DNA from: Pseudodesulfovibrio piezophilus C1TLV30
Lineage (GTDB): Bacteria; Desulfobacterota; Desulfovibrionia; Desulfovibrionales; Desulfovibrionaceae
Reading direction: 5' to 3'
DNA: 32,000 nucleotides
NCBI RefSeq assembly: GCF_000341895.1
Contig: NC_020409.1
Span: 600,001-632,000 of the forward strand
Position 1 is the stretch's first letter; each line of letters opens with the position of its first letter. Shown here piece by piece: positions 1-27,011 of the stretch. The position numbers were made by a program, and so were the translations under genes. The notes beneath the pieces were generated by a model that ran no database searches, had not been told where the DNA came from, and saw only the letters and a list, made by a program, of their open reading frames with translations.

Positions 1-1955
1 GACCAAAGCCTGTGCTGATCTGTGCGACTTTAGCCGGTTGTCTTATTCCACTCTTCGCACTCTTGAAAAATGACTTAGAGGTTCTTTATTTTGTCCAATT
101 CTCCTTAGGACTCATTTCCGGACTTATAAAACCAGTCGGAATGGCCATTTTGGGAAGTAATATTGCCAGGAAATCACTTCCACGCTCTTTTGCATTTCAC
201 GCCTTCTCATATCATATAGCTCTTTTCATCGGCCCCCTGATTGGAGGGATATTTTATATCAAAGGATCAGTTCAGCCCATTTTAATAGGCTTGTCGATAT
301 GCATGGGGCTGAGCTGCCTTGTCAGCATCTTTTTACTCCCAAAACAAACAACAACGACAGTATCTCCTTCAAAACAACACACATCTTTTTCCTTCGGATT
401 ACAGACCCTTGCGCTCTTAATTGCTATTGGTGGCCGTACTATTGGAATTGGATTTCTGGCTGCTTTCTACCCAATATTACTGAGTATAATTCTAGGCAGA
501 GGCATCAAGATCGCCCTCCTTTTTGCCATTCCTGGCCTGGCAACCTGCCTCGGACTTCTGGCAATAAACAGATTTGCTGAACACAAGCCTGATCTGCATA
601 TGACAATTTGTGGCATGCTGTTAAGTTCCTTAGCCATGTTTTTTCTTGGAGAAGCCGAAACCTCCTGGCAATTTATCACCCTTGGATCAACGATGGGCAT
701 AGGTGCCGCTCTTTCTGTTCCGGCATCAATGTCAATGGCATCCGATATATCGTTACAACAAGGTAAGATTTTTGGGACCGCTCACCTGGCAGCAGGTCTC
801 GGTTTTCTGATTGGCCCATTGCTTGGCGGCTTTCTTATTCCGGAACTACACTCTATCAATCCTGTTCTCCAAATTGCAGCCACTCTAGGCGCACTTTCTT
901 GTGTTCCATTACTGTGCTCTGCACTTCAGAGTCACTTTCATTTTGGCAGAGGAATCGCATGGGGAGTTGCACTAACTTTAGCTCTATTTCTGATTATTCC
1001 AGCAGCCGTCAGGAGTAAGGTGCTTTTGCAAAAAGATTCCCATATAAATGATGGAATATACCAATTCACCGATGTTGCTATGGGCACCATTGTCAATCTG
1101 ACCCTCGTCGCTGACAGTCAAAAAAAAGCAGATGATGCCGCTCGAAAAACCCTTACGACCATGCGTGCGCTTCAGCAGGACTTCGACTTTCGCAGTCCTC
1201 ATGGATCCATCGGAAGAATTAATCGAGATGCAGGCCATGGCTGGGTCAAACCATCACAGAGGTCTTTTGGCCTCATCATGAGAACATTGGTCATCAGCAG
1301 ACAATCACAAGGAATCTTTGATCCTTCGGTCGGTGCTTTAACAACATCCCCAATCTACTATGCACTGGATACGCATCTTGCAGAAAAGAAGAAAGGACTC
1401 GTTGATTACAGACTTATTGAGATAGATACTTCAGGAAAGAGAATCCGCCTTGCCAGGATGGGGATGGCACTCGATATGGGGGGAATTGCCAAAGGGACAA
1501 TAATAGATACCGCAGTGACCGTTTTAAAAAAACAAGGTATCAAATCCGGAATAGTCGAAGCAGGCGGAGACTTTTATTGCTTTGGAGACCGAGAATGGCA
1601 CATTGGAATCCGTCATCCTCGTGATAAAAAGCTCTTCGGCACGCTCGCCATTCGAGAACAAGGCGTCTGCGGTTCAGGTGATTATCAACAATATGTCACA
1701 TTCGAAGACAAAAAAGGGAGTGAACGACGACATCATATTATTAACCCTTCCACTATGCTCTCAGCGCACCAATCCATCGGAGTCACTGTCATCTCCGACA
1801 CCGCAGAACGTGCGGACGCTTTGGCTACCACACTCTTTATCATGGGGCCGATCAATGGACAGGAATTCCTCGATAAATATTATCCAACAACCGCTGCGGT
1901 CTGGTTTTCTCCCGATCAATCCGTTATTCTCTCCAAGAACTTTCCTGCCCGATGA
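1..1955 (+). CDS. apbE: MFS-like polytopic membrane domain fused to a C-terminal ApbE-type FAD:protein FMN transferase. The 5' end is off the window.
   Basis: The frame is open from nt 3 to the stop at 1953-1955, so the GTG at 12 in the ORF track is probably internal. The first ~335 aa contain about 11 hydrophobic helices and a Thr/Ser-rich central loop (PKQTTTTVSPSKQ), as in MFS transporters. The last ~300 aa carry ApbE signatures: MALDMGGIAKG, EAGGDFYCFG, GSGDYQQY, RRHHIINPST, ADALATTLF. Confidence 0.8.
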   Translation, partial: PKPVLICATLAGCLIPLFALLKNDLEVLYFVQFSLGLISGLIKPVGMAILGSNIARKSLPRSFAFHAFSYHIALFIGPLIGGIFYIKGSVQPILIGLSICMGLSCLVSIFLLPKQTTTTVSPSKQHTSFSFGLQTLALLIAIGGRTIGIGFLAAFYPILLSIILGRGIKIALLFAIPGLATCLGLLAINRFAEHKPDLHMTICGMLLSSLAMFFLGEAETSWQFITLGSTMGIGAALSVPASMSMASDISLQQGKIFGTAHLAAGLGFLIGPLLGGFLIPELHSINPVLQIAATLGALSCVPLLCSALQSHFHFGRGIAWGVALTLALFLIIPAAVRSKVLLQKDSHINDGIYQFTDVAMGTIVNLTLVADSQKKADDAARKTLTTMRALQQDFDFRSPHGSIGRINRDAGHGWVKPSQRSFGLIMRTLVISRQSQGIFDPSVGALTTSPIYYALDTHLAEKKKGLVDYRLIEIDTSGKRIRLARMGMALDMGGIAKGTIIDTAVTVLKKQGIKSGIVEAGGDFYCFGDREWHIGIRHPRDKKLFGTLAIREQGVCGSGDYQQYVTFEDKKGSERRHHIINPSTMLSAHQSIGVTVISDTAERADALATTLFIMGPINGQEFLDKYYPTTAAVWFSPDQSVILSKNFPAR

Positions 1956-13419: not shown

Positions 13420-14184
13420 ATGCGCTCAAAATCGAAGATAATTCCGATCATATTGGTAGCTGTTCTTCTCTTGGTGGTAGCTATTTTCGGCTACGTTCAT
13501 CCAGGAAAAACACAACACATGCCAGTACGGATACTTTTTGAAAACAATGGGGGGAAAGTCATATTCTCCCACCTGATACACCACCGGGATTACAAAATAG
13601 ATTGTGCCACATGTCATCATGACAAAAAACAGAAACCTCTCTCACAAGATGACACTGCGTTACATTGTGGCTCCTGTCACCCGAATGAATTTAATGAAGA
13701 ATTCATTGCCAGTCACATGGATTCCTTTCCAGATGAAACATACTGTGTCCGATGCCATCATACTGAATTTGCCGAAGTTATCTTTAATCACGAAGAACAC
13801 AAAGAATATGCTGACGACTGCTCTGATTGTCACCATGGCAAAGAAATAGAACCCACCCCTCAGCGATGTTCTCACTGCCATAAGTCCCATGATATCAATG
13901 GACTGATCAGTATGCGACAAGCAGGACATCAAAGCTGTGCAAATTGTCATGAGGATATGTTTGAGACTGGATTATCAAGCTGCAAATCATGCCATGTCCA
14001 AGTGGATATGACCAAATATGAAGGAGACTATACATCCTGCAATTCATGCCATGAAGCCGAAGCACGAGAATTGGTTCTTCCACGTATGAATGCATTTCAT
14101 GATCAATGCCTCTCCTGTCACGAAAAAGAAGGAGCTGGCCCATATGGTCCCGACGATTGCAACAAATGCCACATTAGTAGGTAA
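13420..14184 (+). CDS. dhcA: Membrane-anchored decaheme cytochrome c heading the rnf operon (DhcA-like)
   Basis: There are ten CXXCH motifs in 254 aa: CATCH, CGSCH, CVRCH, CSDCH, CSHCH, CANCH, CKSCH, CNSCH, CLSCH, CNKCH. An N-terminal hydrophobic anchor or signal is present (IIPIILVAVLLLVVAIFGYV). The RBS GGAGAGG precedes the start. Confidence 0.9.
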   Translation: MRSKSKIIPIILVAVLLLVVAIFGYVHPGKTQHMPVRILFENNGGKVIFSHLIHHRDYKIDCATCHHDKKQKPLSQDDTALHCGSCHPNEFNEEFIASHMDSFPDETYCVRCHHTEFAEVIFNHEEHKEYADDCSDCHHGKEIEPTPQRCSHCHKSHDINGLISMRQAGHQSCANCHEDMFETGLSSCKSCHVQVDMTKYEGDYTSCNSCHEAEARELVLPRMNAFHDQCLSCHEKEGAGPYGPDDCNKCHISR

Positions 14185-14192
14185 TCAGAACA

Positions 14193-15299
14193 ATGAATAT
14201 CCAAGATATCCTTCCAATTAAACAGGCGGAATTCACCCTGATGCAATATTGTCCCCTGGTGACATGTGGGCAAACCGTCAAACGAGGGCAAAGGTTGGCG
14301 ACCTCTTCAATCCAAGGCATGGGTGATATCCATTCACCCGTGGCAGGGCGAGTCAGCCATCTTGATTCATTCCGTATCCGTATAACAGCCGAAGGTAACG
14401 AAGAAGTAGATTTTACTGATCTCAATAAATTCAAAGGACAGCAACTCTATAAAAAACTTCTTGAACTTGGAGCCGACATTCCTCCCATAGCCGAGGTCGA
14501 GACTCTTATCATCAATAGCGTTGATGCAGAAATTGGTGTTCTGACTCGTAAGGAACTTCTGGTTACGTCTCAAGCCCCTCTTGAATGTGGACTTGAAGTC
14601 ATTCAAACCCTCTACAAACCAGAACTGACTGTCATGGCAACACTCAAAGGCACATCAAATTCACTGGGAAACCTCCTCTGCGTCGAAATCTCGGACCAAT
14701 ACCCGGCAGGACTTGATCCCCTGGTAGCCTTAGCCGTAACCGGCATTGAATCACCAGAAAAGACACTCGTGGTTGACTTGGAAACGCTATTCCACATTGG
14801 CCGAATTATGGAAACCGGACTCCCTTTATTTGAAACAATGGTCACAATTGGTAAAGAAGCACACATTGTCCCTCTTGGCTTGGCAGTCGGTGACATTTTA
14901 GAACATTTTGGAGAAAAATTAGTTGATCACGACAGGATCGTCCTAGGAGGCGCTCTGCGCGGTGCAGCTGCGGCATCAGCGACGCAAGGAGTAGATCGAA
15001 AGACCAATGCCATTACACTTATTCGAACCCCTGTCCCAATCGCACTGGATGCGGCCTGTGTTGGGTGTGGAGAATGTGTCCGACACTGCCCCGCCCGTCT
15101 CGATCCTGCCATGATTACCAGCTATGCAGAATTTGGCCTCTATGAAAAAGCTGCCGAAGAATTTGTAAACACTTGTTTTGAATGTGGACTCTGTGGCTTT
15201 TTTTGCATCGCACACCGCCCCATGCTCCAGTATATACGCTTAGCAAAAAAGGAATTGGCCCTTGGTACAGTCAAATCCAGGGAGGAGGGAGCACTATGA
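14193..15299 (+). CDS. rnfC: RnfC-like subunit, short, with a degenerate nucleotide-binding region
   Basis: The RnfC N-terminal barrel motif GDIHSPVAGRV is present. The C-terminus has a 2x[4Fe-4S] region (CVGCGECVRHCP and CFECGLCGFFC). The gene sits before rnfD. Where canonical RnfC has GLGGAGFP and ECEPY, this protein has ELGADIPP and DAEIG. Confidence 0.8.
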   Translation: MNIQDILPIKQAEFTLMQYCPLVTCGQTVKRGQRLATSSIQGMGDIHSPVAGRVSHLDSFRIRITAEGNEEVDFTDLNKFKGQQLYKKLLELGADIPPIAEVETLIINSVDAEIGVLTRKELLVTSQAPLECGLEVIQTLYKPELTVMATLKGTSNSLGNLLCVEISDQYPAGLDPLVALAVTGIESPEKTLVVDLETLFHIGRIMETGLPLFETMVTIGKEAHIVPLGLAVGDILEHFGEKLVDHDRIVLGGALRGAAAASATQGVDRKTNAITLIRTPVPIALDAACVGCGECVRHCPARLDPAMITSYAEFGLYEKAAEEFVNTCFECGLCGFFCIAHRPMLQYIRLAKKELALGTVKSREEGAL

Positions 15300-16246
15300 A
15301 GCCAATTATCCCATTTCATCTGACAGTATCTGTCCCGCCCCATCGTCATTACGGCACTTCAATACGCGGCAGGATGTTTGCCATTCTACTGGCTATGCTT
15401 CCGGCAGCAACCATGGGGCTAGCCAACTATGGCATGCCAGCTCTTAGGGTCATGTGTCTTTCTATGAGTGCTGCAATTTTCACAGAAGCTCTCTGTCATT
15501 GGCTTATGGAAAGTAAAAGTGAACTTGAGAATCTCCATGCCTTTATCGTGGGATTATCCTTTGCATTCCTCTTACCGGCATCAGCACCTTGGTGGCTTGT
15601 CACTTTTGGAAGTGCCACTTCCATAATTCTCGGAAAAATGATTTTTGGCCCCCTCGGTGGAAGCCCTTTTTGTGCTCCTCTCATCGGATGGGCGGTTTGC
15701 CGAATCTCATGGCCTGCTTTCATGGATATTGATGCTTCCATGCTTTCTGCCGACCTGACATTCCCCCTGGCCCAACTCAAGGACTTCGGACTGAACTCGG
15801 TCATGATAACCGATACAAAACAACTTTTTCTGGGCAAACAGCTTGGGGGATTAGGTGCTGTTCAAATAGCCGGAATCTTGCTTGGTGGCATTATCCTCGT
15901 GGCTAAGAGGCATGTTTCATCCATCATTCCAATGGGGGTCATCGGCGGAGTCTGTATCACCGCTGGACTCTTCAACATGCTCAATCCAAACATTTACGCA
16001 ACACCCGGCTTCCACCTCCTGACCGGATCAACACTTTTCGGAGCCTTTTTCCTCGCAACCGATGGTTCATCCTCACCCAACAGACAAATCCCCATGCTCC
16101 TCTTCGGCTTACTCATCGGGATAATGATTGTTCTTATTCGAATTTATGGTTCATACCCGGATGGCGTCCCTTTTGCCATTTTAATAGCAAACCTTTTTAC
16201 TCCGGTTTTCGAGCGAATTCGCCCCCGGCCCTTTGGTGTGAGGTGA
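15296..16246 (+). CDS. rnfD: RnfD, polytopic membrane subunit
   Basis: ATG 15296 overlaps the rnfC stop as ATGA and is preceded by AGGGAGGAGGG. The N-terminus has SVPPHRH, and the remainder is multi-TM. The track start at 15182 lies inside rnfC. Confidence 0.85.
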   Translation: MKPIIPFHLTVSVPPHRHYGTSIRGRMFAILLAMLPAATMGLANYGMPALRVMCLSMSAAIFTEALCHWLMESKSELENLHAFIVGLSFAFLLPASAPWWLVTFGSATSIILGKMIFGPLGGSPFCAPLIGWAVCRISWPAFMDIDASMLSADLTFPLAQLKDFGLNSVMITDTKQLFLGKQLGGLGAVQIAGILLGGIILVAKRHVSSIIPMGVIGGVCITAGLFNMLNPNIYATPGFHLLTGSTLFGAFFLATDGSSSPNRQIPMLLFGLLIGIMIVLIRIYGSYPDGVPFAILIANLFTPVFERIRPRPFGVR

Positions 16247-16249
16247 CAT

Positions 16250-16825
16250 ATGAAAGAAATGATGAAAATGATGCTTGTTCTTTCTCTTATCTGTGGCTTT
16301 GCAGGGATTTCTCTTGCCGCACTGAAGGAGATCACCTCACCTGTAATCGAAGAGCAGGTACTGACCTTTGTTCAGGCTCCGGCAATTGAGTATGTGCTGA
16401 AGAGCCACGACAATGACCCCATAAAAGACCGAAAAAAATATTCTCTGAATACTCGAGTAGTGACAGTATTTCCAGGCATAAAGAATGGAATCCTCGAAAG
16501 CATAGCATTTGAAACTTCTGGCAAAGGATATGGCGGAAATATCGGTGTCATGGTTGGTTTTGATATCTCTACTCAAACTCTTTCAGGCATTGGCATCACA
16601 ACCCTGAAAGAAACTCCGGGCCTTGGTTCCCGTGTTGCCGAACATGGTTATACGACACAATTCAGAGGCCACCCAATCCAATCCATAGCTCTCAAAAAAA
16701 ATGGTGGAGATATAGACGCTGTAGCAGGGGCAACCATCTCGTCAACCGGCACAGTCGCTGCGGTTCAAGATGCAATATCTCTCTTTATGCAACTCAAAAC
16801 AGAACTTGCCGACGGCTGGTCCTAG
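16250..16825 (+). CDS. rnfG: RnfG, FMN-binding subunit
   Basis: It has an N-terminal anchor (MMLVLSLICGFAGISLAAL), an FMN_bind-type domain, and the flavinylation motif DAVAGATISSTG. Confidence 0.9.
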   Translation: MKEMMKMMLVLSLICGFAGISLAALKEITSPVIEEQVLTFVQAPAIEYVLKSHDNDPIKDRKKYSLNTRVVTVFPGIKNGILESIAFETSGKGYGGNIGVMVGFDISTQTLSGIGITTLKETPGLGSRVAEHGYTTQFRGHPIQSIALKKNGGDIDAVAGATISSTGTVAAVQDAISLFMQLKTELADGWS

Positions 16826-16854
16826 GCTGACAAATGCCTCATTCGGAGAAGACA

Positions 16855-17535
16855 ATGAATCAATTATGGAAAGAATTTTCCAAAGGACTCTGGAAAGATC
16901 TCCCCCCCTTCAAACTGGTCCTCGGCCTCTGTCCAGTCCTTGCTGTCACGAATACGACTCAAAATGGCCTTGGCATGGGGGTGGCTGTTATCTTTGTACT
17001 CACCCTCTCAAACCTCGTGGTTTCATTACTACGAAAGATAATTCCCTCGAAGGTCCGTATTGCCTGTTTTATTGCTATCTCCGCTTCGCTTGTCGTGGCG
17101 GTTGAACTTCTTATGCAAGCATTTGCTTATCCTCTCTACCAACAACTCGGCATCTTTGTTCCTTTGATAGTGGTAAATTGTATAATCCTCGGGCGAGCTG
17201 AAGCTTTTGCTTCCAAAAATTCCCCACTTATGGCCATGGCCGATGGCATGGGGATGGGGGTCGGATTCACCATGTCGCTCACGTTTCTCGGGGCTCTTCG
17301 TGAAATTCTTGGAACCGGAAAACTCTTTGGTACGTACGTTGCCTGGGGAGACTTCGAACCCGTCGGATTAATGGTCCAGGCACCTGGAGCTTTTGTCAGC
17401 CTCGGAATTCTACTCGCCTTGATGACGTTTGTTGAAAACATACAGCGAAAACGCAGAGGGTTAGCCGCAATAGAAGGTCCTACACACGATTGCGGAGCGT
17501 GCGGCGGATGTGGCAAAGCGTCAAACTGTTCATAG
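16855..17535 (+). CDS. rnfE: RnfE membrane subunit with a Cys-rich C-terminal tail
   Basis: Motifs are LGLCPVLAVT and VNCIILGRAEAFA. I prefer ATG 16855 (GGAGAAG RBS) over 16834. The tail reads THDCGACGGCGKASNCS. Confidence 0.85.
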   Translation: MNQLWKEFSKGLWKDLPPFKLVLGLCPVLAVTNTTQNGLGMGVAVIFVLTLSNLVVSLLRKIIPSKVRIACFIAISASLVVAVELLMQAFAYPLYQQLGIFVPLIVVNCIILGRAEAFASKNSPLMAMADGMGMGVGFTMSLTFLGALREILGTGKLFGTYVAWGDFEPVGLMVQAPGAFVSLGILLALMTFVENIQRKRRGLAAIEGPTHDCGACGGCGKASNCS

Positions 17536-17548
17536 TGGAGCATAAACA

Positions 17549-18124
17549 ATGCAAGATTACTTTCTTCTCTTTATTGGTGCAATGTTCGTCAACAACATTG
17601 TTCTGGCCCAATATCTCGGGAATTGTCCTTTCATAGGCACATCCAAAGAGTCAGGTGTTGCAATCGGCATGGGTGGAGCCGTTGTCTTTGTCGCAGTTAT
17701 GGCCACAGGGATTACATGGTTGGTTCAACACCATCTGCTTATCCCCTTTGGACTCGGTTATCTTCAAACATTGGCCTTTATTCTGGTTATTGCAGCATTA
17801 GTCCAATTTGTAGAAATGTTTCTCAAAAAAATGATTCCTCCTTTATACAAATCCCTAGGCATATTTTTACCTCTCATTACAACAAATTGTGCAGTCATGG
17901 GTATCGCTCTGATCTGTCAGCGAGAGGAATTCGGTCTGCTCCGATCCGTACTTTTCGCCTTTGCTTCCGGACTTGGCTTCATGCTCGCTCTGGTTCTTCT
18001 CGCTGGAATTCGTGAAAAACTGGCCGTTCGAAGACTCCCAGTATCCATGAGAGGAACGCCTATCGGTTTGATAATGGCAGGGCTGATGTCCCTGACTTTT
18101 TTCGCTTTCAAGGGAATGATTTAA
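17549..18124 (+). CDS. rnfA: RnfA membrane subunit
   Basis: Motifs are NNIVLAQYLGNCPFIG and ITTNCAVMGIAL. The 191-aa protein has six hydrophobic helices. Confidence 0.9.
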   Translation: MQDYFLLFIGAMFVNNIVLAQYLGNCPFIGTSKESGVAIGMGGAVVFVAVMATGITWLVQHHLLIPFGLGYLQTLAFILVIAALVQFVEMFLKKMIPPLYKSLGIFLPLITTNCAVMGIALICQREEFGLLRSVLFAFASGLGFMLALVLLAGIREKLAVRRLPVSMRGTPIGLIMAGLMSLTFFAFKGMI

Positions 18125-18181
18125 AATCAAAAAATTTGAAATACAGTAGAGCCGACACCATTCATCAGAGGAACTAATCAT

Positions 18182-20287
18182 ATGATATTAATATCAGGAC
18201 TCACTCTTTTCAGCATAGGTCTTGGAGCTGCTGCAATATTGGGTATAGCTTCGAAACTCCTCTACGTAAAAGAAGATCCACGGATTAATTTGATTGAAGA
18301 GTCCCTCCCCGGAGCCAATTGCGGTGGCTGTGGCTTCCCTGGGTGTTCAGGTGCAGCAGCAGCAATTGTGGCTGGCAAGGCTCCTGCGACAGTCTGTATT
18401 GTTGCCGACTCTGAAATGAGTCTGCTTGTTGCAGGAATTATGGGGCAGGAGGTTATTGAAAGAGAACCGGAACTCGCTATCCGGGATTGCTCAGGAGGAA
18501 TGCGTGCATCCGATTCCTTCCATTATGAAGGAGCACATGACTGCCGAGCCGCCCATCTCCTCTATGGTGGTTCAAAATCCTGTCCTGAAGGATGTCTCGG
18601 CCTGGGAACCTGTATGCGGGCCTGCCCTTTCGATGCTATCCAAATGAATGACCAGAATCTTCCAATCATTGATCCATTGGCATGCAAGGCATGTGGAAAC
18701 TGCGTTGACGCCTGCCCTCGTGGAGTTATTGGTGTAGCTGGAATCTCTGCTCGTCTGCTCCATCTCAACCTCACATCAGACTGTCTTGCCCCATGTCGCC
18801 AAAAATGCCCTGCACAAATAAATATTCCCAGATATATTGAACAGATAAAATCTGGTGATTACAATGGTGCGATTATGACTATCAAAGAGCGTAATCCTCT
18901 TCTTCTAACGTGTGGACGAGTTTGTCCCCGCCCCTGCGAGACTGAATGCCGCCGTCAATATGTGGATGAGACCGTCGGTATAAACATGCTCAAAAGGTTT
19001 GTGGCAGATAGGGAACTTCATACAGGAAAACACCTCCCTATTTCCTGCGCCAAAGATACCGGGAAAAAAGTCGCCATCATCGGCGGAGGTCCAGCAGGCC
19101 TCTCATGCGCTTATTTTCTACGTCGACTGGGGCATCAACCAACCATTTTTGAAGCAATGCCAAAACTTGGTGGGCAGACCCGCTATGGCATTCCGGAATA
19201 TCGCCTTCCTAAAGCAGATCTTGATTGGGAGATTCAAGGCATACTCGATCTTGGGATCGAAGCGAAAATGAATACAAAATTCGGTGTTGATTTTACCATT
19301 GAGACACTCAAAAAAGACAACTTTGAGACTATCTTCATTGGTATTGGAGCTTGGCAAGCTTCAGGTATGTATGCAGAAGGAGAAGACCTGAATGGTGTCA
19401 TGGGCGGTATCGAATTTCTCACTGCACACGCCATGGGACAAAAGATTGAAACAGGAGAACATGTCATCGTCGTAGGAGGAGGAAATACCGCTATTGATGC
19501 TGCGAGGACCTGTATTCGTCTCGGGGCACAGGTCACTCTTATGTATCGACGAACTCGTGCTGAAATGCCTGCTGATATGGAAGAAATTATTGGAGCAGAA
19601 GACGAAGGAGTCCAGTTCAAGTTTTTGGCAGCCCCTGCGCGAGTCATTGGAGATGAAAAGCACCACGCCACTCATTTGGAGTATTATGAGATGGAACTGG
19701 GAGAACCAGATGAATCTGGTCGGCGAAAACCTATCAAGAAAGAAGGCTCTGAACAACGTATGTGTGCAAATCTGATTATCCCGGCCATAGGACAAAAACC
19801 AGATCTCAAGTGTCTTTATGAAAATGAAGAAGAAGGAAGCTGCCTTTTGGAAACAACCCGATGGCAAACAATTGTTGCAGATTCCGAGACTTTCGAAACA
19901 GCTATACCAGGAGTCTTTACTGCCGGAGATGTCTATACTGGACCTGATTTGGTCATATCGGCAATTGGCGATGGCAGAAAAGCCGCACGAGCCATGCACT
20001 ACCATATGACAAAGGGCATTATTCCTCTCTCCGACCAGACACAAACAACAATGATCCCATATACGTTATTCAAGGAAGTTAGTGTTAAAGAAAAGAAAGA
20101 ACGAGCGACTCTTCCTCTCCTTTGTTATGGCGAGGAAAGAAATTGTACATTCAATGAGGTAGAAGGGACTCTTTCGGAGAGACAAGCGCAAAAAGAGGCA
20201 GATCGCTGCCTTCGCTGCGGCTTGCTCTGCTATGATGGCGACTCTGCACAGGAAACTCAGGGAGTTTTGAACACATTTGAAGAATAA
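18182..20287 (+). CDS. rnfB: RnfB fused to a GltD/NfnB-like FAD- and NAD(P)H-dependent oxidoreductase module
   Basis: Residues 1-195 are RnfB: a TM helix, NCGGCGFPGC, and a 2x[4Fe-4S] region (CPEGCLGLGTCMRACP and CKACGNCVDACP). Residues ~196-610 are GltD-like: CRQKCPAQINIPRYI...CGRVCPRPCETEC, the FAD fold VAIIGGGPAGLSCA, the NAD(P)H fold VVGGGNTAIDAAR followed by MYRRTRAEMPA, LGEPDESGRRKP, and GVFTAGDV. The C-terminus has EADRCLRCGLLC. Confidence 0.85.
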   Translation: MILISGLTLFSIGLGAAAILGIASKLLYVKEDPRINLIEESLPGANCGGCGFPGCSGAAAAIVAGKAPATVCIVADSEMSLLVAGIMGQEVIEREPELAIRDCSGGMRASDSFHYEGAHDCRAAHLLYGGSKSCPEGCLGLGTCMRACPFDAIQMNDQNLPIIDPLACKACGNCVDACPRGVIGVAGISARLLHLNLTSDCLAPCRQKCPAQINIPRYIEQIKSGDYNGAIMTIKERNPLLLTCGRVCPRPCETECRRQYVDETVGINMLKRFVADRELHTGKHLPISCAKDTGKKVAIIGGGPAGLSCAYFLRRLGHQPTIFEAMPKLGGQTRYGIPEYRLPKADLDWEIQGILDLGIEAKMNTKFGVDFTIETLKKDNFETIFIGIGAWQASGMYAEGEDLNGVMGGIEFLTAHAMGQKIETGEHVIVVGGGNTAIDAARTCIRLGAQVTLMYRRTRAEMPADMEEIIGAEDEGVQFKFLAAPARVIGDEKHHATHLEYYEMELGEPDESGRRKPIKKEGSEQRMCANLIIPAIGQKPDLKCLYENEEEGSCLLETTRWQTIVADSETFETAIPGVFTAGDVYTGPDLVISAIGDGRKAARAMHYHMTKGIIPLSDQTQTTMIPYTLFKEVSVKEKKERATLPLLCYGEERNCTFNEVEGTLSERQAQKEADRCLRCGLLCYDGDSAQETQGVLNTFEE

Positions 20288-25682: not shown

Positions 25683-26027
25683 TTAGTTAATGGTATTAAC
25701 AGCACACGCCTGAACTTCAGTGTACATGAAGTTTTGAACGATCATGCCTTCCACCTGCACCTCATTCTTTTCATTGACAGCCTGTTGTATTCCAGCATCA
25801 TTCACATAAAGCAGCAATTCGCCTGTATTGTCTGCAAACAGAAACTCATTGTCCTTAATTTGGCGAACAAAATGCCCATTCAATACAACACTGGTGTCAA
25901 TGCCAGAAACCTTTGCTTCCGCAACAGATGTAGCCTTGTATGGCCCAGCGGCATAAGATTCCTGGGATGAAAAAATGAATGCCGATATCATAAGAAACAG
26001 CACAAAAAATATTCCAGAAGTTTTCAT
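25683..26027 (-). CDS. Periplasmic OB-fold stress protein, YgiW/BOF family
   Basis: The signal peptide is MKTSGIFFVLFLMISAFIFSSQESYAA. The mature part follows the E. coli YgiW pattern (TSVAEAK..VVLNGHFVRQIKDNEFLFADNTGELLLYV...VQVEGMI). The start is taken at ATG 26027, not 26102. Confidence 0.75.
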   Translation of the reverse strand: MKTSGIFFVLFLMISAFIFSSQESYAAGPYKATSVAEAKVSGIDTSVVLNGHFVRQIKDNEFLFADNTGELLLYVNDAGIQQAVNEKNEVQVEGMIVQNFMYTEVQACAVNTIN

Positions 26028-26294
26028 TGTATTATCCTCAAAATTTGAATTGTCTCTTTTAATCTGCCAGGACTTTCCTGACTCACGTCTAAACGATAAC
26101 ACATCTTAATCTTTTATCCAGATTTTTTTTCATGCTTAACATATTGGAATAACAGAATATTATAATATATTCTTTATTTTGACTGATTAGTCAATCAAAA
26201 AAATATCTTTAGTCACCTTCCTATGACAATCCAATTGAGAAATACCTGCACCAGAGCAAAACACATTTCAATAACAAATTTTCTTGCCCTCCCC

Positions 26295-26355: not shown

Positions 26356-26811
26356 TTAGTGCTTATGCTCAGGGTAATACTCAAGAAGAGCTTTGACGTA
26401 TCCCTCAAGAGCATCCACTGGCTCTATTGAAGCATTTTGCTTGGCCTTCATGGCTCCGACTATAACGGCATGATGCTTCTTTAAACGTTCAACATAATCT
26501 TTCTGATCCGCCTTGACTCGTTGAGTCAGGAAATAATCAGAAATGGTGCTGATAATTTTTTGAGCATGTATTTCTTTATTATCAACCCAACGAACAAACT
26601 GCTGACGAGACTGGATATCTGTTTTATCGACCAACTCCTGAAGCATGGTTACTGCTTTTCGTATAGTAGCAACATCTTCCAACAGAGCTTCTACGCGAGC
26701 ATTGTCATCGTAAATACCACAAGGAACTTGGCAATGAGCTAAGGCTTGACTCGGCAGCACAAGCAAAATCGCTATAAAAATTATGAAACTAAGACTCTTG
26801 AATTGTTTCAT
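26356..26811 (-). CDS. sodN: Nickel superoxide dismutase precursor with a Sec-type signal peptide
   Basis: The Ni-hook HCQVPCGIYD (consensus HCxxPCGxY) directly follows the signal-peptide-like sequence MKQFKSLSFIIFIAILLVLPSQALA. Downstream helices resemble Streptomyces SodN (KEIHAQKIISTISDYF). The RBS AAGGAG precedes ATG 26811. Confidence 0.85.
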   Translation of the reverse strand: MKQFKSLSFIIFIAILLVLPSQALAHCQVPCGIYDDNARVEALLEDVATIRKAVTMLQELVDKTDIQSRQQFVRWVDNKEIHAQKIISTISDYFLTQRVKADQKDYVERLKKHHAVIVGAMKAKQNASIEPVDALEGYVKALLEYYPEHKH

Positions 26812-27011
26812 TAAACTTCTCCTTGTACTCAACAGGAGCACGCTTTTTGTTGGACCGTACACATGCACAGCCTATGGAATTCCAACTTACTCTATATAAA
26901 AGATTCCAAAACACGTCTAGTAGCCGAAAAAATCTTCTCCTCAGCTCTGATTTTTCGTATGCTACTTCAATAACTTTAAACGATACCTTACAGTATTAAA
27001 ATGGATACTCA

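What the first reader, a model, noticed from the sequence alone, without database searches (positions are those of the whole stretch)
1..1955. ApbE flavin transferase fused to an MFS-like transporter domain: a possible coupled FAD exporter and flavinylase
One uninterrupted frame joins about 11 visible hydrophobic helices to a full ApbE domain (GGIAKG, GSGDYQQY, HHIINP, ADALATT). The Thr/Ser-rich loop that looks like the MFS central loop comes after the 4th visible helix. That suggests two more helices lie upstream of the window, giving 12 MFS helices plus one extra. An extra 13th helix would put ApbE on the periplasmic side, where ApbE normally acts as a lipoprotein. ApbE needs FAD outside the cytoplasm, and dedicated FAD exporters are known elsewhere, for example the MATE protein Bfe in Shewanella. 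A physical fusion of a transporter fold to ApbE would therefore be a neat substrate-delivery solution. The likely clients are in the same window: RnfG has DAVAGATISS. RnfD has an atypical SADLTFPL where (S/T)xATPL is expected. The helix counting was done by eye.
Basis: partly seen in the sequence, partly recalled or inferred. Interest (0 to 1): 0.65.

Follow-up and report, generated by a model that had tools for sequence, protein, structure and literature searches.

The report
Exporter-type membrane transporter fused to flavin transferase
One gene joins a 12-helix efflux-pump-like transporter, through one extra membrane helix, to an outward-facing enzyme (ApbE) that attaches flavin to respiratory proteins. 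This suggests, but does not prove, a built-in supply line carrying the flavin donor FAD across the membrane.

Summary
Window nt 3-1955 is one open frame encoding MFS_1 (85 bits) plus ApbE (208 bits). A 100%-identical full-length protein (708 aa) supplies the two missing N-terminal helices.

AlphaFold gives 12 MFS helices, a 13th helix, then the ApbE fold. Positive-inside counts (15.2 vs 3.6 K+R, 45/45 sequences) place ApbE in the periplasm. The junction is in frame in 46 independent genomes, all Desulfovibrionaceae-like.

The MFS half resembles the DHA1 efflux pump NorA and keeps motifs A and C. NorA's acidic pocket residues are Ala here, while three intramembrane basic residues are conserved, which fits an anionic cargo. 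The ApbE triad (D663-S616-H636) is invariant.

In relatives the fusion sits directly after rnfB, the usual apbE slot, and/or beside secreted FMN_bind proteins. A second, unrelated fusion (MOP/MATE-like 12 TM + 1 TM + ApbE) lies next to rnf in 3 of 3 loci examined.

FAD export coupled to flavinylation is therefore the best-supported mechanism, but the cargo is inferred, not shown. RnfG is the likely client; RnfD lacks the canonical site. No description was found in the literature searched. Verdict: new variant of a known kind.

The parts
3..1955 (+). MFS-ApbE fusion gene, 5'-truncated by the window edge. It encodes residues 59-708 of the 708-aa protein P0001; the stop codon is at 1953-1955.
   Evidence: Open frame. 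Pfam MFS_1 + ApbE. Full-length identical protein P0001 and locus L001.
3..935 (+). MFS domain, helices TM3-TM12 (P0001 residues 59-369). TM1, TM2 and motif A (GAAADKFGPKP) lie upstream of the window.
   Evidence: AlphaFold helices. End-to-end alignment to NorA. Foldseek matches to NorA/VMAT with target TM-score about 0.8.
231..248 (+). Motif C (GPLIGG, residues 135-140, TM5), the signature of MFS antiporters/exporters. It is echoed in TM11 as GPLLGG.
   Evidence: Family consensus GPllGg; P136 and G139 are invariant.
336..392 (+). Central cytoplasmic loop between the two six-helix bundles (residues 170-188), Thr/Ser-rich.
   Evidence: Non-helical and low pLDDT in the model. Mean K+R 3.8 per sequence across the family.
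435..437 (+). Codon of Arg203 in mid-TM7, invariant in 45/45 family members. Together with K/R43 (upstream of the window) and K/R101 (nt 129-131) it is one of three conserved intramembrane basic residues.
   Evidence: Conservation analysis.
948..1037 (+). TM13 (residues 374-403), the extra helix that carries the chain from the cytoplasm to the periplasm.
   Evidence: AlphaFold H374-403. Hydrophobic in all 45 members (mean 19-aa hydropathy 2.19) but poorly conserved in sequence (0.28). The loop before it is K/R-rich.
1056..1952 (+). ApbE (FAD:protein FMN transferase) domain, residues 410-708, predicted to be periplasmic.
   Evidence: Pfam 208 bits. PDB sequence matches to TM1553, FmnB and Ftp. 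Foldseek target TM-score 0.81-0.86.
1674..1676 (+). Ser616, equivalent to FmnB Ser257 / V. cholerae Ser241 (catalytic triad).
   Evidence: Alignment to 7esa, triad named in PMC12052999, invariant in the family.
1734..1736 (+). His636, equivalent to FmnB His273 / V. cholerae His257 (the general base).
1815..1817 (+). Asp663 of ADALAT, equivalent to FmnB Asp301 / V. cholerae Asp285.
13420..20287 (+). Multihaem cytochrome c plus the rnfCDGEAB operon. No apbE gene follows rnfB; ackA follows instead.
   Evidence: Pfam/NCBIfam. tblastn finds no second ApbE anywhere in the window.
16250..16825 (+). rnfG, the only FMN_bind protein in the window and the most likely flavinylation client. Its site D-A-V-A-G-A-T is at nt 16715-16735.
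   Evidence: Pfam FMN_bind 7e-16. Motif present and conserved in relatives as DAV(S/T)GAT.

Best explanation
The gene encodes one inner-membrane polypeptide with three parts. The first is a DHA1-like 12-helix MFS transporter with both ends in the cytoplasm. The second is a 13th helix that crosses to the periplasm. The third is a complete, catalytically intact ApbE flavin transferase tethered at the periplasmic face. The proposed mechanism is that the MFS domain moves cytoplasmic FAD (an anion) outward and hands it to the attached ApbE. ApbE then transfers the FMN moiety to the Thr of the D-x-x-(S/T/A)-G-A-T site of RnfG, and in relatives to secreted FMN_bind proteins, releasing AMP. Shown by computation: the architecture, the topology, the conservation of transporter and catalytic motifs, and the genomic linkage to flavinylation clients. 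Inferred: that the MFS domain still transports, that its cargo is FAD, and that delivery to ApbE is direct.
For: (1) One frame carries MFS_1 + ApbE. It is in frame in 46 genomes and in an independent assembly. (2) There are 13 helices followed by the ApbE fold. K+R counts are 15.2 inside vs 3.6 outside, consistent in 45/45 sequences. (3) The MFS half aligns over residues 5-348 with the efflux pump NorA (fold match). Motif A and antiporter motif C are conserved. NorA E222/D307 align to Ala, there is no conserved intramembrane acid, and there are three conserved intramembrane basic residues including the invariant R203. This pattern fits an anionic substrate. (4) The MFS half is far more constrained (0.55) than the TM13 anchor (0.28), although a single helix would suffice as an anchor. 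The closest unfused ApbE relatives (P0126, P0131) do use just a single signal-anchor or a lipobox-like N-terminus. (5) The ApbE triad D663-S616-H636 is invariant. (6) The fusion lies immediately downstream of cytC-rnfCDGEAB on the same strand in L015, L024, L034, L036, L037 and L043. This is the slot held by apbE-like rnfF in D. alaskensis (PMC4841214) and by a plain apbE in L063/L069. (7) All 15 loci of the four deeper subclades have rnf and/or a signal-peptide FMN_bind protein gene adjacent. (8) There is an independent second fusion of a MOP/MATE-like 12 TM + 1 TM + ApbE, with ApbE predicted outside (19.6 vs 2.4 K+R, 24/24), and it is adjacent to rnf in 3 of 3 loci. (9) The window has no other ApbE. 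(10) Dedicated FAD export that feeds ApbE has precedent in Listeria EetB/FmnA, whose authors suggest targeted delivery to ApbE (PMC9973259), and in Shewanella Bfe (PMC3551548).
Against: No result identifies the cargo. The MFS half lacks the membrane-embedded acidic residues that couple protons in NorA, so the energy coupling is unexplained and loss of transport cannot be excluded. In the window's own clade and in Maridesulfovibrio, the conserved neighbour is the frd-fumarase-malic enzyme-DASS cluster (about 20 of 46 loci), with a TetR or HK/RR regulator, rather than rnf. Thirteen loci show no recognisable client nearby. I could not inspect the model's coordinates or PAE, so docking of the ApbE active site over the MFS exit is untested. 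I could not census whole genomes for other apbE genes or flavin exporters.
Confidence: 0.55

Rival explanations
1. Anchor or scaffold only. The MFS domain no longer transports anything relevant and merely holds ApbE at the membrane, perhaps near Rnf. FAD reaches the periplasm by another route.
For: NorA's coupling residues E222/D307 are Ala here, and no conserved intramembrane acid exists. The MFS half is somewhat less conserved than ApbE (0.55 vs 0.66). No transport evidence exists.
Against: Motifs A and C and three intramembrane basic residues are conserved down to 37% identity. All 12 helices are retained in 46 genomes, although one helix or a lipid anchors the closest unfused relatives. 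A different exporter fold has been fused to ApbE independently, which is hard to explain if only an anchor were needed.
Confidence: 0.2
2. The transporter is coupled to ApbE chemistry but works in another direction or on another ligand. Examples are re-import of the product AMP, or of FMN/riboflavin, with ApbE acting partly as an FAD pyrophosphatase as in T. pallidum Ftp. This would be flavin or nucleotide salvage rather than FAD export.
For: T. pallidum Ftp-type enzymes hydrolyse FAD in the periplasm, and a single residue switches the activity (PMC4767422). The residue at that position is ambiguous in my alignment (R455, or position 456, which is Ser here and Asn in the family consensus). AMP is a product and an inhibitor of ApbE (PMC12052999). 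Conserved basic residues would also suit AMP or FMN.
Against: Motif C is characteristic of MFS antiporters/exporters (established knowledge of the DHA families). The closest solved relatives are efflux pumps. Neighbouring genes are flavinylation substrates (RnfG, FMN_bind proteins), not flavin-salvage genes. Import alone would not explain how FAD gets out.
Confidence: 0.12
3. The MFS domain carries an unrelated substrate, and the fusion with ApbE is functionally incidental. Candidates are a C4-dicarboxylate (suggested by the frd/fumarase/DASS neighbourhood) or a toxic compound (suggested by the TetR-plus-MFS arrangement in Maridesulfovibrio).
For: The frd cluster is adjacent in about 20 of 46 loci. 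A TetR gene lies directly upstream of, and overlaps, the fusion gene in Maridesulfovibrio. Basic pocket residues would also fit dicarboxylates.
Against: An incidental fusion would not be kept in frame in 46 genomes, nor arise again with a MOP-type domain. The frd link is confined to two sister genera, whereas the deeper clades are linked to rnf or FMN_bind genes. In L015 the frd-side genes, rnf and the fusion form one block, so the frd adjacency may be inherited synteny. FrdA, FrdB and FrdC carry no flavinylation motif.
Confidence: 0.08
4. Artefact: a frameshift or misassembly joins two separate genes, or the ApbE domain is actually cytoplasmic.
For: One metagenomic locus (L088) has MFS and ApbE called as two overlapping genes.
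Against: L088 also has a broken PFOR gene, so it is a frameshift-prone assembly. There are 46 in-frame orthologues and an independent near-identical assembly. The 13-helix model and the 45/45 positive-inside result place ApbE outside.
Confidence: 0.02

Closest known systems
ApbE / Ftp / FmnB FAD:protein FMN transferases (E. coli, V. cholerae, T. pallidum, Listeria; PF02424)
   Same: Same fold (target TM-score 0.81-0.86), same Asp-Ser-His triad and GGxAKG / EAGGD / SGDY / HHI / ADALAT motifs, and extracytoplasmic placement.
   Different: Characterised ApbEs are lipoproteins or have a single signal anchor (PMC12052999). This one is the C-terminal domain of a 13-helix protein. It scores far below the enterobacterial equivalog model (55 vs 498 bits).
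rnfF, the apbE-like last gene of the D. alaskensis rnf operon
   Same: Same operon position: in six relatives the fusion sits directly after rnfB (PMC4841214). Presumably the same client, RnfG.
   Different: rnfF is described as an ApbE-like lipoprotein with no transporter domain. In this window the post-rnfB slot is empty and the fusion lies about 11 kb upstream of the cytochrome c-rnf operon, on the same strand.
NorA and other DHA1 drug:H+ antiporters of the MFS
   Same: 12-helix fold, alignment over residues 5-348, and motifs A and C.
   Different: NorA's essential acidic residues E222/D307 are Ala here. The family instead conserves K/R43, K/R101 and R203 in the membrane, and has a 13th helix plus an enzyme domain.
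Listeria EetB/FmnA/EcfA/A' ECF-type FAD exporter
   Same: Same proposed job: provisioning extracytosolic ApbE with FAD. eetB genes often colocalise with apbE, and targeted delivery to ApbE has been suggested (PMC9973259).
   Different: It is an ATP-driven multi-subunit ECF transporter, unrelated in fold, and a separate polypeptide from ApbE.
Shewanella Bfe (MATE-family FAD exporter)
   Same: A secondary transporter that exports FAD to the periplasm (PMC3551548). It belongs to the MOP superfamily, as does the membrane domain of the second ApbE fusion family found here.
   Different: A different fold from the window's MFS domain, and not fused to ApbE.
Trypanosomatid ApbE-fumarate reductase fusions
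   Same: A precedent for ApbE as one domain of a larger protein (PMC12052999).
   Different: There ApbE is fused to its substrate and is intracellular. Here it is fused to a putative supplier and faces outward.

Membership tests
ApbE flavin transferase (PF02424) | Sequence match above the Pfam gathering score | tested here: met
   208.3 bits vs 25.6, profile positions 1-265 of 266.
ApbE flavin transferase (PF02424) | ApbE fold | tested here: met
   Foldseek matches to FmnB, Ftp and TM1553: target TM-score 0.81-0.86, rmsd 2.3-2.9 A, using a model with pLDDT 85.
ApbE flavin transferase (PF02424) | Conserved Asp-Ser-His catalytic centre (V. cholerae D285-S241-H257; FmnB D301-S257-H273) | tested here: met
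   Maps to D663-S616-H636 through the 7esa alignment. All three are invariant in 45 sequences. The triad is as named in PMC12052999.
ApbE flavin transferase (PF02424) | Extracytoplasmic location (for the secreted class) | tested here: met
   Prediction only: 13 helices and positive-inside bias in 45/45 sequences.
ApbE flavin transferase (PF02424) | N-terminal lipoprotein signal, typical of characterised members | tested here: not met
   It is replaced by 12 MFS helices plus TM13. Some close unfused relatives have a single signal-anchor or a lipobox-like N-terminus.
ApbE flavin transferase (PF02424) | Mg2+-dependent transfer of FMN from FAD to a Thr/Ser of the target | not testable with these tools
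   Needs enzyme assays. Whether the domain is a transferase or a pyrophosphatase (the Ftp N55 / E. coli Y60 position) is ambiguous in my alignment.
Enterobacterial ApbE equivalog (NCBIfam NF007774) | Score above the equivalog cutoff | tested here: not met
   55.2 bits vs 498. It is a distant ApbE, not an orthologue of E. coli ApbE.
Major facilitator superfamily, DHA1-like exporters | Sequence match above the Pfam gathering score | tested here: met
   MFS_1 84.8 bits vs 33.4. NorA E = 5.5e-7 over residues 5-348.
Major facilitator superfamily, DHA1-like exporters | Two six-helix bundles joined by a cytoplasmic loop, N- and C-termini inside | tested here: met
   Helices 1-6, loop 170-188, helices 7-12. 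Charge bias. Foldseek matches to NorA/VMAT, target TM-score about 0.8.
Major facilitator superfamily, DHA1-like exporters | Motif A (G-x-x-x-D-R/K-x-G-R-R/K) in the TM2-TM3 loop | tested here: met
   G51-x3-D55-(R/K)-x-G-P-(R/K); G51 and D55 are invariant.
Major facilitator superfamily, DHA1-like exporters | Motif C (G-x-x-x-G-P-x-x-G-G) in TM5, the antiporter signature | tested here: met
   FIGPLIGG; P136 and G139 are invariant.
Major facilitator superfamily, DHA1-like exporters | Membrane-embedded acidic residue(s) for proton and cationic-drug binding (NorA E222, D307) | tested here: not met
   They align to A211 and A294. No intramembrane acid is conserved at 80% or more, but K/R43, K/R101 and R203 are. 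It is therefore not a typical drug:H+ antiporter.
Major facilitator superfamily, DHA1-like exporters | Transport activity and substrate | not testable with these tools
   Needs vesicle or proteoliposome assays.
Known FAD exporters (MATE Bfe; ECF EetB/FmnA) | Homology to MATE (MOP superfamily) or to EetB (PF07456) | tested here: not met
   The window protein hits only MFS families. It can at most be an analogue. The second fusion family does have a MOP/MATE-like fold.
Known FAD exporters (MATE Bfe; ECF EetB/FmnA) | Genetic association with apbE and flavinylation clients | tested here: met
   Covalent fusion to ApbE. rnf and/or FMN_bind genes are adjacent in 19 of 46 loci.

The most novel reading that the evidence does not exclude
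Transporter::ApbE fusions, which arose at least twice (MFS-type in Desulfovibrionaceae; MOP/MATE-type in Hadarchaeota, Acetothermia and Chloroflexi MAGs), mark a so-far unrecognised route for supplying FAD to extracytoplasmic flavinylation in organisms that lack an EetB-type exporter. In the MFS version the domain would work as an electroneutral FAD(out)/AMP(in) exchanger. That would explain the antiporter motif C, the three conserved intramembrane basic residues and the absence of any proton-coupling acid. FAD would be channelled straight into the tethered ApbE, and the inhibitory product AMP would be removed.
Probability: 0.12. Interest if true: 0.85.

Novelty: new variant of a known kind. 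Interest (0 to 1): 0.62.

Why it matters
ApbE-dependent flavinylation is needed by Rnf, Nqr, NosR, extracellular electron transfer and other extracytoplasmic redox systems in about half of bacterial genomes (PMC8238504). ApbE needs FAD outside the cytoplasm, but exporters have been identified in only a few lineages: ECF EetB/FmnA in Listeria and MATE Bfe in Shewanella. A polypeptide that welds an exporter-type transporter to ApbE is a natural Rosetta-stone fusion. It nominates specific MFS and MOP clades as FAD-delivery candidates. It offers a single-gene system in which coupled export and flavinylation can be tested by mutagenesis. It also gives physical form to the idea of targeted FAD delivery to ApbE raised for Listeria (PMC9973259). 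If the MFS domain turns out to be only an anchor, the finding reduces to an unusual membrane-anchoring variant of an ordinary enzyme.

Tried and rejected
(1) Frameshift or misassembly at the junction: rejected. The apparent split in L088 is a frameshift-prone contig in which PFOR is also broken.

(2) Cytoplasmic ApbE: rejected by the helix count and the charge bias.

(3) Rnf as the universally conserved neighbour: not so. In the window's clade and in Maridesulfovibrio the conserved neighbour is the frd cluster. The rnf link comes from other subclades.

(4) Fumarate reductase subunits as clients: no flavinylation-type motif in FrdA, FrdB or FrdC. The FrdA-like gene near L024, L037 and L043 is a 544-aa soluble FAD_binding_2 + Succ_DH_flav_C flavoprotein with no FMN_bind domain.

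(5) A naturally split MFS + ApbE gene pair as a Rosetta-stone control: none found. No MFS-domain match accompanies the 36 ApbE-only loci L049-L084. The MFS-only homology search returned just two proteins, because generic MFS proteins saturate the word index.

(6) A context look-up for the closest unfused ApbE (P0108) failed, as it is not on record.

(7) Deciding between transferase and pyrophosphatase from the Ftp N55 / E. coli Y60 position: the alignment is ambiguous by one residue.

(8) Literature searches for an MFS-ApbE or transporter-ApbE fusion found nothing. The library is incomplete, so absence is not proof.

(9) No intrinsic terminator was found between the fusion gene and the downstream histidine kinase gene, so the transcription-unit boundaries remain open.
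Full report

Window nt 3-1955 (frame 3, + strand) is an uninterrupted reading frame that runs off the 5' edge and ends at a stop codon at 1953-1955. Its 650 visible residues score for Pfam ApbE (2e-61, 208 bits, profile 1-265 of 266) and MFS_1 (7e-24, 85 bits). NCBIfam adds weak matches to Tet(A), Bcr/CflA and EntS-type efflux pumps.

A database protein, P0001, is 100% identical and 708 aa long. It supplies the 58 missing N-terminal residues. Its contig, L001, overlaps the window with 8 mismatches in 5,308 nt. L001 is therefore an independent assembly of a near-identical strain with the same junction. An in-frame ATG 57 nt further upstream (L001 456) would add a segment resembling the N-termini of the homologues, so the true length may be 727 aa.

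2. ARCHITECTURE AND TOPOLOGY

AlphaFold2 on a 45-sequence alignment (mean pLDDT 85.3, pTM 0.72) gives these elements:

- helices 2-24, 29-57, 59-79, 83-111, 114-145 and 149-169;
- a disordered Thr/Ser-rich loop, 170-188;
- helices 189-222, 226-247, 256-273, 279-307, 311-340 and 343-369;
- a 13th helix, 374-403;
- an alpha/beta domain from residue 410.

Across the 45 sequences, loops predicted to be cytoplasmic average 15.2 K+R and those predicted to be periplasmic average 3.6, termini excluded. The bias has the same sign in all 45. Motif A (G51-x3-D55-R/K-x-G-P-R/K) lies in the TM2-TM3 loop, as in all MFS proteins. TM13 is hydrophobic in every member but poorly conserved (majority fraction 0.28, against 0.55 for the MFS half and 0.66 for ApbE), which is what a simple spanning helix looks like. 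The conclusion, from prediction only, is N-terminus in, TM12 ending in, TM13 crossing, and ApbE in the periplasm.

3. BOTH HALVES LOOK FUNCTIONAL

ApbE half. It matches TM1553, Listeria FmnB and T. pallidum Ftp by sequence (E 1e-28 to 1e-22) and by fold (target TM-score 0.81-0.86). The catalytic centre named in the 2025 review is FmnB D301-S257-H273, equivalent to V. cholerae D285-S241-H257 (PMC12052999). It maps to D663-S616-H636, and all three are invariant in the family, as are GGxAKG, EAGGD and SGDY.

MFS half. It aligns over residues 5-348 with the DHA1 efflux pump NorA and matches NorA and VMAT by fold. Motif A and antiporter motif C (GP(L/I)(L/I)GG in TM5, echoed in TM11) are conserved. 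NorA's two essential acidic residues align to Ala211 and Ala294, and no intramembrane acid is conserved. In contrast, K/R43 (TM2), K/R101 (TM4) and the invariant R203 (TM7) are conserved.

By analogy with MFS anion transporters (my own knowledge of GlpT, UhpT and OxlT), this pattern suits an anionic cargo such as FAD. It does not identify the cargo.

4. DISTRIBUTION

About 100 clusters at 90% identity (lengths 707-773 aa) share the architecture. Sources name them variously as 'MFS transporter', 'FAD:protein FMN transferase' or 'thiamine biosynthesis lipoprotein'.

A scan of one genome per species found 42 loci with the full-length fusion, from 41 species genomes, plus two partial matches on short contigs (L044, L046). 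They come from Pseudodesulfovibrio, Maridesulfovibrio, Salidesulfovibrio, 'Desulfovibrio caledoniensis' and MAGs labelled Desulfovibrionales, Thermodesulfobacteriota and the like. One MAG carries two paralogues (L019 and L031). All 46 recovered ORFs (the 42 scan loci plus L001-L004) keep both halves in one frame without a stop.

An exhaustive HMMER search of 1.84 billion cluster representatives found 271 proteins at E <= 1e-30. Apart from this family and two more distant MFS_1+ApbE proteins (P0123, P0128), nearly all of the best 150 are plain ApbEs of 300-370 aa.

5. GENOMIC CONTEXT

The window contains, in order: the fusion; a dCache histidine kinase and a sigma-54 response regulator; frdCAB; fumarase; malic enzyme; a DASS transporter; a multihaem cytochrome c; rnfCDGEAB; ackA; and PFOR. 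There is no second ApbE and no FMN_bind gene other than rnfG. The post-rnfB slot, which in D. alaskensis holds the apbE-like rnfF (PMC4841214), is empty.

Across the 46 loci, context tracks subclade:

- Maridesulfovibrio-type loci have a TetR gene directly upstream and a divergent frd cluster.
- The window's clade has HK/RR + frd, or nothing recognisable. In L015 the order is fumB-maeB-cytC-rnfCDGEAB-fusion.
- The four deeper subclades (15 loci) all have flavinylation partners adjacent. The fusion lies directly after rnfB in L024, L034, L036, L037 and L043. In 12 of these loci a gene for a signal-peptide protein with FMN_bind domains (mostly two in tandem) lies immediately upstream, and in L030 an FMN_bind protein gene lies downstream.

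The frd adjacency is therefore likely to be inherited synteny within two sister genera, whereas the link to ApbE substrates is the deeper signal. FrdA, FrdB and FrdC carry no flavinylation-type motif.

6. AN INDEPENDENT SECOND FUSION

Among the distant hits were proteins of about 720 aa with a C-terminal ApbE domain and an N-terminal Polysacc_synt/PelG-type domain. They form a family of about 26 clusters from Hadarchaeota, Acetothermia and Chloroflexi MAGs.

AlphaFold (pLDDT 82.6) again gives a polytopic bundle, one more helix (381-399), then ApbE. The bundle matches MATE transporters, WzxE and MurJ, so it has the MOP-superfamily fold. With 12+1 helices the K+R counts are 19.6 against 2.4, consistent in 24 of 24 sequences, so ApbE is again outside. 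All three loci examined place the gene immediately next to rnfCDGEA(B).

Two unrelated exporter folds have thus been fused to ApbE in the same 12+1 arrangement, and both are linked to Rnf. This argues that what is selected is transport, not anchoring. MATE is also the family of the Shewanella FAD exporter Bfe (PMC3551548).

7. MECHANISM AND CONFIDENCE

Best-supported reading (0.55): the MFS domain exports FAD, the tethered periplasmic ApbE uses it to flavinylate RnfG (D-A-V-A-G-A-T, nt 16715-16735), and AMP is released. In relatives the secreted FMN_bind proteins would also be flavinylated.

Shown computationally: the architecture, the topology, the motif conservation and the linkage to clients. 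Inferred: transport competence, FAD as the cargo and direct hand-over.

The closest unfused ApbE relatives (45-55% identity) have N-terminal hydrophobic segments. P0126 has a single signal-anchor and P0131 a lipobox-like signal. This suggests that TM13 descends from ApbE's own signal anchor, and shows that twelve extra helices are not needed for anchoring.

Rivals: anchor only (0.2); a coupled but different ligand or direction, such as AMP/FMN salvage (0.12); an unrelated substrate suggested by the frd or TetR neighbours (0.08); an artefact or a cytoplasmic ApbE (0.02).

8. CLIENTS

RnfG keeps a recognisable [S/T]GA[S/T]-like site, with Ala in the first position here and Ser/Thr in relatives.

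RnfD does not. Unrelated RnfDs (L063, L085-L087) have (A/T)ATPL, while this lineage has LTFPL, LTYPL or MAYPL. When aligned on the 'PL', an aromatic residue occupies the Thr position. RnfD is probably not flavinylated at the canonical position.

9. NOVELTY

I found no description of an MFS-ApbE or MOP-ApbE fusion in the 2025 ApbE review, the 2021 and 2024 flavinylome papers, the Listeria FAD-export paper or full-text searches. [quoted passage not shown] An ApbE anchored by 13 helices has neither, so it could have been overlooked unless a neighbouring client carried one.

The parts are known and the proposed role has precedents, so I rate this as a new variant of a known kind. It has good experimental leverage on how ApbE obtains FAD.

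Noticed in passing
window 15746-15769 (RnfD, ORF 15182-16246); also L015, L024, L034, L036, L037, L043: RnfD in this lineage lacks the canonical flavinylation site. It has LTFPL, LTYPL or MAYPL where unrelated RnfDs (L063, L085-L087) have (A/T)ATPL. When aligned on 'PL', an aromatic residue replaces the flavinylated Thr. This Rnf may carry only one covalent FMN, on RnfG.
   Followed up: partly
window 14193-15299 (rnfC) and 18182-20287 (rnfB): RnfC is short (368 aa). It has no detectable Complex1_51K NADH/FMN domain even at E <= 10, scores below the rnfC cutoff (129 vs 246 bits) and shows weak NqrA-like similarity. RnfB (701 aa) is fused to a complete GltD-like NAD(P)-binding flavoprotein module (NF009410, 476 bits). 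The pyridine-nucleotide site of this Rnf may have moved from RnfC to RnfB. The long RnfB is conserved in the rnf-linked relatives.
   Followed up: partly
L085 8001-10169, L086 8001-10235, L087 7851-10031: A second family fuses a MOP/MATE-like 12-helix domain, a 13th helix and ApbE. It occurs in Hadarchaeota, Acetothermia and Chloroflexi MAGs and is adjacent to rnf in 3 of 3 loci. It is independent of the MFS fusion.
   Followed up: yes
L037 9246-9920; also L023, L031, L033, L035, L036, L038, L039, L041, L042, L043, L047 (upstream of the fusion) and L030 12293-13525: Small secreted proteins with FMN_bind domains (mostly two in tandem) are encoded directly beside the fusion. Where I read the sequences, the predicted flavinylation sites deviate from the [S/T]GA[S/T] consensus (D-x-x-A-K-A-T/S, S-T-A-T or S-S-A-T). 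Their function is unknown.
   Followed up: partly
L003 9465-10037, L004 9405-9977, and the other Maridesulfovibrio-type loci: A TetR-family regulator gene lies immediately upstream of the fusion gene (overlapping it in L003), divergent from the frd cluster. This is the classic TetR-plus-MFS efflux arrangement. Its ligand might be a flavin.
   Followed up: no
L001 456-512 (upstream of window nt 1): An in-frame ATG 57 nt upstream of the called start would add MDRVHSQLPSNKFRLLTVV, which resembles the N-termini of the homologues. The protein may be 727 aa rather than 708 aa. No clear Shine-Dalgarno sequence precedes either start.
   Followed up: partly
L019 and L031 (both from MAG CAJXYU01): One genome carries two paralogous MFS-ApbE fusions. 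One is next to TetR + frd and the other next to a tandem FMN_bind protein gene, which hints at client-specific copies.
   Followed up: no
L088 8001-10186: MFS and ApbE are called as two genes that overlap by 61 nt in different frames. PFOR on the same contig is also split, so this is most likely an assembly frameshift and not a natural split gene.
   Followed up: yes
window 25683-26102 and 26356-26868 (- strand): A nickel superoxide dismutase gene (Sod_Ni, 1.7e-37) lies near a BOF-domain protein gene (BOF, 1e-11) in what appears to be a sulfate-reducer genome.
   Followed up: no
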